IMG/VR virus record: IMGVR_UViG_2529293138_000009
Location: 1 to 20,832 of that record
Reading direction: 5' to 3' (one strand)
Source: a virus
Lineage: Duplodnaviria; Heunggongvirae; Uroviricota; Caudoviricetes
DNA: 20,832 nucleotides
In this document: piece by piece, positions 12,001 to 15,000 of the stretch
Layout of the letters: every line of letters starts with the position of its first letter
How positions within the stretch are numbered: the stretch's first letter is position 1
Made by a program: the position numbers

Positions 12001-15000
12001 GCACTGAAAGCGGATTTCTTCGGGTTTGCCCCAGCACGCAACGGGTATTCCCGCCAGACCTGTTCGAACACATCCGGATAATCCACTCGTCCCACAGGCT
12101 GCCCGGTGTTTTCCGGGACTACCCGATCGGCTTCCCGCTGAATGGCGGAATCGGCTTCAGGCTGCTGCAGTTGGTGTGATTGCTCCGGCCTTGCGGTCAT
12201 CACCTGCTGCACAGCGCCCGAATCGGCTTTCAGCGCATACGCTGAATCGGCTTCCGGTGTCGTGCCTGCTGGCTGACCAGGATTGACGGTCTGAACATCC
12301 CCTGACTGGTTCGTGGCGTTTTTTACGCCATGGACCATAGTGTTTTGATCTTCTTTATCTGTATCTTTATCTGTATCTTTATCTGTCGTGACTCGTCGTG
12401 ACATGTGCGTGACATTTCGTGACGCGCCGTGACAATCGCCATTTTGTTCCCGCTTTCTTTCCCTCTCTCGCTGCGCCCTCTTGCGCTCTGCAGGAGATTT
12501 TGCGGTTTGCGAAATATTGCCGTTGTCCTCTTTCAGCACCTGGCGTTTTTCCCATCCAGTGATTAAATCACCATCAAGTACCCGCCACTGCATCGTCTGC
12601 AAAATTGAATCAATTACCTCTTCTGTCACGTCGAGCGCACTTGCCAAATCTTCTGTCGTGACATCAATGTGACCTCGCGTGACATTTCGTGACGCGCTCA
12701 CCAAGAGGTGGATATACACTGCCATCACTGTTGCAATTGGCTGCCCTGACACCCTGGCAATTGTTCGCCACTTAGGGTCATTTGGCATGTCATGCCATAA
12801 TCTGAGCCAGGCGTTAGCCATACTCACCTCTTCTGATACCGAATCTTTTTACTCACGAGTTGCCGGAAGCGATTCGATATGGCTATTGTCAGTCAATGTA
12901 CTGCCACAGCATTTCCTGCCGGGCCACCACGTTTCATCTGATTGAAACCGGCGATTGCCACTGCGACAAAATCATCAGCGTCTCTCACCAGTCGCTCCCG
13001 CGTCTCCACCAGTTCCCGAAAATAAGCTGAACTGTGGCTGCGCATTCTGGCCACCAGCAAAGGTGGCATTGCCTTTTCGATCGCTGGTAACAACGCCTGA
13101 ATTTTTTCAACAGCATCAGGGGTGTCTTTCTCCACCCAGCGGAAAATTTTCTGGGTATTACGAGCCAGGGCTTCCGGATGGCTGTCGTCGTACAGTTCAG
13201 GAAACGTCAGCCCCAACTCAAAATAAGCCCGGGTTATTTCAGCTGCCGGAACTTTTTCACCGTCCGGATGCGCCCAGACATTCATCGCCATGCGGATGTG
13301 TTCATGCTTGATTTTCATGAATCAACTCCATCAGATAAGCATGCACTACAATCACCTTCAGCATGAACTACATGTGTTTGCCCCAAACGAATGCCGCTCG
13401 CATACTCAGGCCAAATAAGCTCCCAATCATGGGGTCGTAGCTCCGCCCTACTTACTTGGCCTTCCGTCGCAGATTCGATCATAAGGGCGCGGGTTGGAGA
13501 TATAGCTGCTCGTCCAGACGCCATTTGCGATAAGTAAGATGGCGATACACCAAGTCTGGCCGCGAATTTCTTAGCATCACCAACCATCAATGATTTAATA
13601 AACTCTTTTAATGTCATACCTTCCTCGGTTTAGTGTTTTTTTGCGAGTTTAGTGTTTAATAAACCATTAAGTCAAGTATTTGCTTGTTTAGTGATTACTA
13701 AAGATAATTACCACATGCAAAAAAAAGAAATTCGCCGTTTACGTCTCAAGGAGTGGTTTAAAGATAAAACTCTGCCACCCAAAGAGAAGAGCTACCTATC
13801 TCAACTAATGAGTGGGAGGGCCTCGTTTGGAGAAAAGGCTGCCAGAAGAATAGAGCAAACATACGGGATGCCGGAAGGGTATCTGGATGCGGAATACGCA
13901 GAACAACCGGCAGTTTCTCCACCACATGCAGGGTTAACGTCTAATCAACTGGAATTATTGCAGATTTTTTCAGCCTTCCCTGAGGATGAGCAACGCCAGA
14001 TAATCAGCGAGTTAAAGCAGAAAAAAGAATCAATGGAAGATCTAATAGCGAGATGGATTGCGGCGCAAAAATGCCGCCGCGCCTGAGTTATAAAACCGGA
14101 GGAAACATGAATAGAGCCCTTTCACCAATGGTTTCTGAATTTGAAACCATTGAACAAGAAAACAGTTACAACGAATGGCTGCGTGCGAAAGTAGCAACGA
14201 GCCTTGCAGATCCGCGCCCAGCAATTCCCCATGACGAAGTTGAGCGCAGAATGGCAGAACGCTTTGCTAAAATGCGCAAGGAACGGAGCAAACAGTAAAA
14301 TGTTACCCGTGTTATGGCTTGAAAGCGCAGATACCGACCTAGATGATATAACTAGTTATATTGCTCGTTTCGACATAGATGCGGCTGAACGCTTATGGCA
14401 GCGATTAAGGGGTTGTGTGCTGCCGTTATCCGAACATCCGTATTTATACCCACCAAGCGACAGAGTACCTGGCTTGCGTGAGATTGTAGCCCACCCTAAC
14501 TATATAATTCTATACCGCGTAACAACATCAAGCGTTGAAGTAGTAAACGTGATCCACGCAAGACGCCAGTTTCCCTAACTTTCACTACCAATAGAAACAT
14601 AACAACCGCAACGACTTTATCAAAAGCGTTGTGTTTGTTACGCTCCGTGGTTTAGTTTTTACTTGACTTAAGTTTAATGTTTATTAAACTAAAAATACCA
14701 ACCCACCCCGCCCCACAGAATGCAGGGCAATACTTCGAGTTACCAGGCAGTGGTCAGGGGTTAAGTAGCCAGCCCGAGGCGTAAGAACATGACGGCAGGG
14801 TTCAACTTTAATAACTATGCAGCAGGTTTTTGTTCCGCTACCCCGGCGTTAAGGGGAAATTAGGTCAACATGGATACTATCGATCTTGGCAACAACGAAT
14901 CTCTGGTGCACGGCGTGTTTTCCAACCAGGACGGCACATTCACCGCGATGACGTATACCAAAAGCAAAACGTTTAAAACCGAAAATGGTGCCCGTCGCTG

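What the first reader, a model, noticed from the sequence alone, without database searches (positions are those of the whole stretch)
13715..14578. ParE-family toxin-antitoxin pair fused into the immunity operon directly behind the prophage repressor
The repressor-like gene is followed within 20 nt by the 63-aa PaaA2-like antitoxin and then, 2 nt later, by the ParE2-like toxin: a three-gene operon of the paaR2-paaA2-parE2 type known from O157:H7 cryptic prophage. Coupling an addiction module to the lysogeny repressor would stabilise the prophage.
Basis: partly seen in the sequence, partly recalled or inferred. Interest (0 to 1): 0.5.

Follow-up and report, generated by a model that had tools for sequence, protein, structure and literature searches.

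The report
Known PaaR2-PaaA2-ParE2 prophage addiction operon
This is the already published paaR2-paaA2-parE2 operon, in which a phage repressor is co-transcribed with a toxin-antitoxin pair; the proteins match the crystallised E. coli O157:H7 ones, so the call is correct but ordinary, and the only new point is that the operon sits in a Shiga-toxin-1d prophage.

Summary
It is also already known.

- **Genes:** window 13715-14578 (+) holds paaR2 (13715-14086, 123 aa), paaA2 (14107-14298, 63 aa) and parE2 (14300-14578, 92 aa).
- **Identity:** PaaA2 and ParE2 are 100% identical to the crystallised O157:H7 proteins (3ZBE, 5CW7). PaaR2 residues 1-65 are identical to 7NKV, with one linker substitution (G66A) against an O55:H7 copy.
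- **Published switch, all present:** divergent ydaS-ydaT, the 97-bp operator region, PR and PL with identical hexamers, GTTTAGT operator repeats, and the exact YdaT site.
- **Literature:** Jurenas et al. 2021 (PMC8630535) already showed that PaaR2, YdaS and YdaT act like CI, Cro and CII. They also showed that the locus is bistable and stabilises plasmids, and they proposed that it stabilises the prophage immunity region.
- **Distribution:** the cassette occurs in 633 of 5426 complete E. coli genomes.
- **New context only:** here it sits in an Stx1d-converting prophage as an exchangeable immunity cassette (about 13330-14694). It is also found in an Stx2k prophage and in the cultured temperate phage Evi.

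Interest is low.

The parts
12893..13318 (-). ydaT (141 aa), the CII-like activator of the alternative promoter PRE for the paaR2 operon
   Evidence: Pfam YdaT_toxin PF06254, E=7.3e-10. Function is taken from PMC8630535 and PMC9986795. It is more diverged from the O55:H7 copy than the rest of the locus (77 nt and 22 aa differences).
13308..13325 (.). YdaT high-affinity operator OM (TTGATTTTCATGAATCAA) at the ydaS/ydaT junction
   Evidence: Exact match to the published 5'-TTGATTN6AATCAA-3' site and the only zero-mismatch hit in the window. The site is defined in PMC9986795.
13315..13617 (-). ydaS (100 aa), the Cro-like regulator transcribed divergently from paaR2
   Evidence: Pfam YdaS_toxin PF15943 E=3.7e-12 and HTH_3. 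It has 1-2 aa differences from the UMNF18 and O55:H7 copies. Its Cro-like role is taken from PMC8630535.
13618..13714 (.). 97-bp OR region. PR runs on the minus strand (TTGACT 13675-13670, TAAACT 13651-13646). PRM runs on the plus strand (TTGCTT 13680-13685, GATAAT 13703-13708), which puts +1 at the A of the paaR2 ATG, giving a leaderless mRNA. GTTTAGT operator repeats start at 13628, 13647 and 13686.
   Evidence: The length equals the published 97 bp. The PR hexamers come and the repeats. The PRM hexamers were read directly from the sequence and fit the published 5'-RACE start. The region has no differences from the O55:H7 copy.
13715..14086 (+). paaR2 (123 aa), the CI-like repressor and first gene of the operon; it has no S24 autocleavage domain
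   Evidence: Residues 1-65 are 100% identical to PDB 7NKV/8C3L 'Phage repressor protein CI'. The MQKKE start matches the published N-terminal sequencing. The single difference from O55:H7 is G66A in the linker. No Pfam family matches, so no Peptidase_S24. It matches PHROG 5736, transcriptional regulator.
14107..14298 (+). paaA2 (63 aa), an antitoxin without a DNA-binding domain
   Evidence: 100% identical to PDB 3ZBE/5CW7/5CZE PaaA2. Pfam PF21217 E=1e-19.
14300..14578 (+). parE2 (92 aa), a ParE-family toxin
   Evidence: 100% identical over all 92 residues to PDB 5CW7_B/5CZE ParE2. Pfam ParE_toxin PF05016 E=1.9e-16.
14600..14640 (+). Hairpin between parE2 and PL, possibly an end-of-operon structure (inferred)
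   Evidence: RNA fold of 14570-14665 gives -19.5 kcal/mol, z=-2.98 against shuffles. There is no canonical T-tract, and the terminator scan did not call it.
14648..14693 (+). OL/PL region: PL with TTGACT at 14663-14668 and TAAACT at 14685-14690 (the same hexamers as PR), plus operator repeats at 14650 and 14672
   Evidence: It matches the published description of PL933P as having -35 and -10 elements identical to PR933P and three operators.

Best explanation
This is the published three-component paaR2-paaA2-parE2 locus, embedded in the immunity region of a lambdoid prophage.

Shown in the literature for sequence-identical proteins:
- PaaR2 is a CI-like repressor translated from a leaderless PRM transcript.
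- It competes with the Cro-like YdaS for shared operators in the 97-bp OR region and at OL/PL, which gives a bistable switch.
- The CII-like YdaT activates an alternative promoter at the ydaS/ydaT junction.
- paaA2 and parE2 are co-transcribed behind paaR2, in the position that rexA-rexB occupy in lambda.
- PaaA2 has no DNA-binding domain, neutralises ParE2 by direct binding, and is degraded by ClpAP and ClpXP.
- ParE2 localises to the nucleoid and induces the SOS response. Its exact target is unknown.
- Loss of the locus therefore kills the cell, and the locus stabilises unstable plasmids.

Inferred: in a prophage this penalises deletion or recombinational replacement of the immunity cassette, and so stabilises the prophage, which here carries stx1d.
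For: - Protein identity: searches show 100% identity to PDB 7NKV, 3ZBE/5CW7 and 5CW7_B. One search gives Pfam PaaA2 and ParE_toxin above their cutoffs, and YdaS and YdaT for the divergent genes.
- Architecture: spacings are 20 nt and 1 nt, and paaA2 has a GGAGG. The 97-bp intergenic region, PR and PL with identical hexamers, and the GTTTAGT repeats are all present. The YdaT site is exact.
- Mechanism and addiction phenotype: PMC8630535 and PMC9986795.
- Distribution: 633 of 5426 complete E. coli genomes, 578 of them at 99% identity or more.
- Cassette behaviour: homology to a heteroimmune Stx1d prophage breaks at 13329 and 14695. Near-identity to the O55:H7 copy is confined to about 13304-14603.
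Against: - Nothing argues against the identity of the genes.
- On function, stabilisation has been shown only for plasmids, not for a prophage. Jurenas et al. detected no ParE2 activity in either transcriptional state.
- A related Stx1d prophage carries a PaaR2-like repressor with no TA pair behind it, so the pair is dispensable for the switch.
- The biochemical target of ParE2 is unresolved.
Confidence: 0.95

Rival explanations
1. The pair works mainly as an anti-phage (abortive infection or exclusion) module expressed from the lysogenic PRM transcript. It would be a functional counterpart of lambda rexA-rexB, whose position it occupies, and not an addiction or stabilisation device.
For: The position is the same as rexAB, which PMC9986795 states explicitly in a figure legend. 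The pair is transcribed in both switch states. The same prophage carries other defence or accessory genes, an Old-family nuclease and hok/sok.
Against: PaaA2 and ParE2 match no PADLOC defence model. I found no published phage-protection phenotype. Post-segregational killing has been shown directly. The two roles are not mutually exclusive.
Confidence: 0.12
2. PaaR2 is simply the detached DNA-binding half of a split ParD-like antitoxin. On this view the locus is a self-contained TA system that happens to lie in a prophage, and PaaR2 is not the prophage repressor.
For: PaaA2 lacks a DNA-binding domain, and PaaR2 down-regulates the operon. The authors themselves raise the split-antitoxin idea.
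Against: PaaR2 primarily represses PR (ydaS-ydaT) and the distal PL. Operators with the same repeat flank the operon on both sides. A distant PaaR2 homolog occupies the same slot without any TA pair in another Stx1d prophage. In RM8082 the same TA pair follows a repressor whose N-terminal DNA-binding domain is unrelated. A cultured temperate phage, Evi, uses this cassette.
Confidence: 0.04
3. The pair is a purely selfish passenger that keeps only itself in the genome and gives the prophage or host no measurable benefit.
For: No ParE2 activity or phenotype was detected in steady state. Heteroimmune relatives do without it.
Against: The cassette is highly conserved (578 genomes at 99% identity or more). 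It is linked to the whole immunity region across different prophage backbones, including CP-933P-like, Stx1d, Stx2k and Evi. In practice this reading is hard to tell apart from the addiction explanation.
Confidence: 0.1

Closest known systems
paaR2-paaA2-parE2 of cryptic prophage CP-933P/Sp12, E. coli O157:H7 (Hallez et al. 2010, cited through PMC8630535; structures 3ZBE, 5CW7, 5CZE, 7NKV)
   Same: PaaA2 and ParE2 are identical in sequence. PaaR2 is identical except for one linker residue (A66 here, G in O55:H7). Also the same: the 97-bp operator region, the PR/PRM/PL layout, the YdaT OM site, the gene order and the gene spacings.
   Different: The host element differs. Here the cassette lies in an Stx1d-converting prophage with a different replication module (a 358-aa O-like initiator, PHROG 3729), extra cargo (an Old nuclease, hok/sok) and a ydaT diverged by 22 aa. 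It is not CP-933P.
Three-gene repressor-PaaA-ParE operon of the Stx1d prophage of E. coli RM8082 (NZ_CP043825.1). It may be of the paaR1-paaA1-parE1 type; I did not test that.
   Same: The same position and order. The antitoxin is 95% identical and the toxin 89% identical. The repressor C-terminal domain is 49% identical.
   Different: The repressor N-terminal DNA-binding domain is unrelated, so the immunity specificity differs.
Lambda immunity region (cI-rexA-rexB, cro, cII, OR/OL)
   Same: Divergent PRM/PR with shared operators, a distal OL/PL, a leaderless repressor mRNA, a CII-like activator, and accessory genes co-transcribed behind the repressor.
   Different: There is no sequence homology. 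PaaR2 lacks the S24 autocleavage domain, so RecA-mediated induction is not expected. A TA pair takes the place of rexAB. The published description has four inverted repeats rather than three operators.
Canonical parDE type II toxin-antitoxin systems (RK2, Caulobacter, Vibrio)
   Same: A ParE-fold toxin (PF05016; weak hits to 3KXE, 6X0A and 5CEG), neutralised by a small labile protein antitoxin.
   Different: The antitoxin has no ribbon-helix-helix DNA-binding domain and does not autoregulate. Regulation is handed to a separate phage repressor.

Membership tests
paaR2-paaA2-parE2 three-component TA system | ParE-family toxin of the ParE2 type | tested here: met
   100% identity over 92 aa to 5CW7_B. 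PF05016 scores 60.9 bits against a cutoff of 23.
paaR2-paaA2-parE2 three-component TA system | Short PaaA2 antitoxin without a DNA-binding domain, encoded immediately upstream of the toxin | tested here: met
   100% identity to 3ZBE. PF21217 is the only Pfam hit. Its stop codon lies 1 nt before the parE2 ATG.
paaR2-paaA2-parE2 three-component TA system | A third, upstream, same-strand gene encoding the PaaR2 regulator | tested here: met
   Residues 1-65 are identical to 7NKV. The full length differs from the O55:H7 copy at one residue. It lies 20 nt upstream of paaA2.
paaR2-paaA2-parE2 three-component TA system | Toxicity of ParE2, neutralisation by PaaA2, ClpAP/ClpXP-labile antitoxin, post-segregational killing | not testable with these tools
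   Reported for sequence-identical proteins in PMC8630535. Here it is inferred from identity only.
paaR2-paaA2-parE2 three-component TA system | Co-transcription of the three genes as one operon | tested here: inconclusive
   The spacings are tight, and the only promoter-like match inside the operon is a weak 9/12 site at 14319-14347 within parE2. Operon status is established experimentally in the literature. No transcript data are available for this window.
CP-933P-type lambdoid immunity region (PaaR2/YdaS/YdaT switch) | Divergent ydaS-ydaT, a 97-bp OR with PR/PRM, a distal OL/PL with the same operators, and the YdaT OM site | tested here: met
   The OR region is identical to the O55:H7 copy.
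Lambda CI / LexA-like SOS-cleavable repressors | C-terminal Peptidase_S24 autocleavage domain | tested here: not met
   PaaR2 has no Pfam hit at E<=0.01. The literature states that the peptidase motif is absent and that the prophage does not respond to mitomycin C.
Canonical parDE | ParD antitoxin with an RHH DNA-binding domain that autoregulates the operon | tested here: not met
   PaaA2 matches only PF21217, with no ParD or RHH family. The literature reports no DNA-binding motif.
Known anti-phage defence systems (PADLOC) | Match to a curated defence-system protein model | tested here: not met
   PaaR2, PaaA2 and ParE2 have no PADLOC hits at E<=0.001.

The most novel reading that the evidence does not exclude
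In this element the PaaR2/YdaS switch controls an Stx1d-converting prophage. PaaR2 is not cleavable through RecA, and the published switch is bistable and reset in stationary phase. Phage induction, and any toxin release that depends on phage late genes and lysis, would then be SOS-independent and heterogeneous across the population. The ParE2 addiction pair would also penalise loss or heteroimmune replacement of the immunity cassette, locking stx1d into the lineage. The same cassette in an Stx2k prophage and in the plaque-forming phage Evi suggests it is a working immunity type, not a relic of cryptic prophages.
Probability: 0.3. Interest if true: 0.4.

Novelty: already known. Interest (0 to 1): 0.12.

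Why it matters
The finding itself adds nothing new. The operon, its structures, its regulation and the prophage-stabilisation idea are all published.

The context has some modest value. The cassette is not confined to the cryptic prophage CP-933P. It behaves as an exchangeable immunity module of about 1.4 kb and is found in Shiga-toxin prophages (Stx1d here, Stx2k in STEC388) and in a cultured temperate phage.

A repressor that cannot be cleaved through the SOS pathway would bear on when toxin and phage are released from such strains. An addiction module inside the cassette would bear on how stably the stx prophage is kept.

Tried and rejected
- **Alternative start:** I considered the longer GTG-initiated ORF (13652-14086, 144 aa) as the repressor gene. 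I rejected it because published N-terminal sequencing gives MQKKE and the 5'-RACE start maps to the ATG at 13715.
- **First coordinates:** my first coordinates for paaA2 and parE2 were off by one and gave stop codons. The corrected coordinates are 14107 and 14300.
- **ydaS-ydaT as a second TA pair:** the Pfam names suggest this. I rejected it on the published evidence that they are Cro-like and CII-like regulators.
- **Literature link to Shiga-toxin phages:** two paper searches for PaaR2 or ParE together with Stx phages found nothing specific. The 'ParE' hits were word-start matches such as 'parental'.
- **Source in complete genomes:** no complete RefSeq E. coli genome covers more than 65% of the window. 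The exact source-like sequence turned up only among draft assemblies.
- **tRNA genes:** none found in the window, unlike the Stx2k prophage.
- **Terminator after parE2:** the consensus scan called none on the plus strand. Only a hairpin without a T-tract is present.

Full report
**1. Observation**

The ORF list and the raw sequence show three consecutive plus-strand genes:

| Gene | Coordinates | Length | Note |
|---|---|---|---|
| paaR2 | 13715-14086 | 123 aa | starts MQKKE |
| paaA2 | 14107-14298 | 63 aa | GGAGG about 7 nt upstream |
| parE2 | 14300-14578 | 92 aa | |

The second is 1 nt (TAA-A-ATG), not 2. My first attempt at coordinates was off by one, and I corrected it.

**2. Identity**

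- PaaA2 is 100% identical to PDB 3ZBE/5CW7/5CZE (E=5.5e-37).
- ParE2 is 100% identical over all 92 residues to 5CW7_B (E=7.1e-60).
- PaaR2 residues 1-65 are 100% identical to 7NKV/8C3L, deposited as 'Phage repressor protein CI' (E=6.1e-40).
- Pfam gives PaaA2 (PF21217) and ParE_toxin (PF05016) above their curated cutoffs. It gives no family for PaaR2, so no S24 peptidase domain.
- Against an O55:H7 chromosome copy, the 1021-bp core differs at 6 nt. The only amino-acid change in the three proteins is G66A in the PaaR2 linker.

**3. Surroundings**

Two genes are transcribed divergently from paaR2: ydaS (13315-13617, Pfam YdaS_toxin and HTH_3) and ydaT (12893-13318, Pfam YdaT_toxin).

The ydaS-paaR2 intergenic region is 13618-13714, or 97 bp. 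That is exactly the length reported for CP-933P. It contains:
- PR on the minus strand, with TTGACT and TAAACT.
- A PRM candidate, TTGCTT-17-GATAAT. It places +1 on the A of the paaR2 ATG (read), which fits the published leaderless transcript.
- GTTTAGT operator repeats starting at 13628, 13647 and 13686.

Downstream of parE2:
- The same repeats recur at 14650 and 14672, around a plus-strand promoter with the same TTGACT and TAAACT hexamers (14663-14690). This matches the published description of PL933P.
- The YdaT high-affinity site TTGATTN6AATCAA is present without mismatch at 13308-13325, at the ydaS/ydaT junction (PMC9986795).
- A hairpin at 14600-14640 (z=-2.98) lies between parE2 and PL. 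It has no T-tract, so calling it a terminator is only an inference.

**4. Mechanism**

The following is taken from the literature for sequence-identical proteins (PMC8630535).

- PaaR2 behaves like lambda CI. It represses PR and PL, and at low levels it activates PRM.
- YdaS behaves like Cro and competes for the same operators. This produces two heritable transcriptional states, with switching tied to stationary phase.
- YdaT behaves like CII and activates an otherwise silent promoter between ydaS and ydaT.
- PaaA2 has no DNA-binding domain, binds ParE2, and is degraded by ClpAP and ClpXP.
- ParE2 associates with the nucleoid and induces the SOS response. Its target is unresolved.
- The locus, with or without ydaST, stabilises an unstable mini-F plasmid as efficiently as ccdAB.
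- No ParE2 activity was detected in either steady state.

The authors propose that the pair is an addiction module that limits rearrangement of the immunity region. It remains an inference for prophages.

**5. What differs here**

The window is not CP-933P. No complete RefSeq E. coli genome covers more than 65% of it. It is 100% identical over 17,118 bp to the draft assembly contig GCA_005044565.1 RRGR01000006.1.

It also encodes the following:

| Feature | Coordinates |
|---|---|
| Rz-like lysis protein, lysozyme, holin | 1-1657 |
| stxB | 1942-2211 |
| stxA | 2221-3168 |
| CPBP protease | 3955-4779 |
| Q antiterminator | 4924-5295 |
| RusA | 5285-5656 |
| DUF968 protein | 5669-6718 |
| M78 peptidase and HTH pair | 7431-8269 |
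| hok | 8514-8726 |
| sok RNA | 8664-8838 |
| Old-family nuclease | 9304-11115 |
| O-like replication initiator | 11751-12827 |
| ydfA-like DUF1391 protein, then ydfC (named by homology to annotated copies), downstream of PL | 14870-15025; 15185-15403 |
| DicF RNA | 16379-16430 |
| 823-aa exonuclease | 17074-19545 |
| Integrase | 19807-20832 |

StxA and StxB are 100% identical to annotated Stx1d. This is therefore an Stx1d-converting prophage. Related loci place it next to mtfA, and in the two complete-genome Stx1d prophages a tRNA-Ser gene lies between the integrase and mtfA.

**6. The cassette is exchangeable**

- Against the Stx1d prophage of strain 2014C-3075, homology stops at 13329 and resumes at 14695. 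The exchanged block is therefore ydaS, OR, paaR2, paaA2, parE2 and OL/PL.
- That relative has, in the same slot, a distant PaaR2 homolog (23% identity, E=1e-8). Its own operator and promoter region follows directly, with no TA pair.
- The Stx1d prophage of RM8082 has a third arrangement. Its repressor has an unrelated N-terminal domain but a 49%-identical C-terminal domain. It is followed by PaaA (95% identical) and ParE (89% identical) homologs.
- Against the O55:H7 copy, differences are dense in ydaT (69 in 12904-13303) and sparse across 13304-14603 (9 in 1300 bp).
- The same cassette lies in the Stx2k prophage of STEC388.
- It also lies, at 98.5% identity, in the cultured plaque-forming temperate coliphage Evi. 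There parE2 is intact but unannotated (PMC6969025).
- Overall the cassette is present in 633 of 5426 complete E. coli genomes.

**7. Rivals**

- **RexAB-like exclusion role.** The position suggests it, and PMC9986795 points out that position. However, there is no PADLOC match and I found no published phenotype. I give it about 0.12, and it is not exclusive of addiction.
- **Split antitoxin.** This is contradicted by PaaR2's control of PR and PL, by homologs that lack the TA pair, and by the same TA pair sitting behind a different DNA-binding domain.
- **Purely selfish passenger.** This cannot be excluded, and in practice it overlaps with addiction.

**8. Verdict**

The novelty class is 'already known', and interest is low. 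The Stx1d context and the cassette behaviour are worth a note but do not change the classification.

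Noticed in passing
window 1942-3168 (-): stxB (1942-2211) and stxA (2221-3168) encode proteins 100% identical to annotated Shiga toxin Stx1d subunits of strain 2014C-3075. The window is therefore part of an Stx1d-converting prophage, with Q antiterminator at 4924-5295 and the lysis genes at 1-1657.
   Followed up: yes
window 13329-14695 compared with L003 (NZ_CP027447.1), L013 (NZ_CP043825.1) and L012 (NZ_CP041425.1): Three Stx1d prophages on a shared backbone carry three different immunity cassettes: PaaR2 with the TA pair, a repressor with a swapped N-terminal domain with the TA pair, and a distant PaaR2 homolog without it. The Stx2k prophage of STEC388 carries the same cassette as the window.
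   Followed up: yes
L014 (Escherichia phage Evi, LR597642.1) 4001-5401: A cultured, plaque-forming temperate coliphage carries the whole cassette at 98.5% identity. parE2 is intact there (protein identical) but is not annotated in the record.
   Followed up: yes
window 9304-11115 (+): A 603-aa Old-family nuclease (AAA_15 ATPase plus OLD-like TOPRIM; best PADLOC model 'Old', E=9e-73) lies on the opposite strand to its neighbours. It is absent from the otherwise near-identical prophages L007 and L009, which have Ead/Ea22-type genes in its place, so it looks like a swappable defence gene.
   Followed up: partly
window 8514-8838 (-): A hok/sok type I toxin-antitoxin locus: Hok/gef protein at 8514-8726 and sok RNA at 8664-8838 (Rfam RF01794, 116.9 bits). 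This is a second addiction-type module in the same prophage.
   Followed up: partly
window 7431-8269 (-): An M78 (IrrE/ImmA-like) metalloprotease gene (7431-7907) is preceded by a 119-aa HTH protein (7910-8269). The pair resembles protease-plus-regulator modules. I did not explore whether it bears on induction of a prophage whose repressor lacks an S24 domain.
   Followed up: no
window 16379-16430 (+): DicF antisense sRNA (Rfam RF00039, 76.7 bits) lies downstream of PL within the ydfA-ydfC-dicB-type early-left operon. This gives functions to part of the region that the 2021 paper described as unassignable downstream of PL933P.
   Followed up: no
window 1669-1861 (-): A match to the sRNA family STnc100 (RF02076, 64 bits) lies between stxB and the holin gene.
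   Followed up: no
window 3178-3954: No tRNA genes lie between Q and stxA (ARAGORN found none in the window), unlike the Stx2k prophage L012, which has Ile and two Arg tRNAs there. A CPBP-family intramembrane protease gene (3955-4779) sits between Q and stx.
   Followed up: partly
window 12893-13318 (-): ydaT is much more diverged from the CP-933P-like copy (77 nt and 22 aa differences) than ydaS and the paaR2 operon (0-4 nt each). Even so, the YdaT operator OM at 13308-13325 is exactly conserved. This suggests a recombination boundary inside or next to ydaT.
   Followed up: partly
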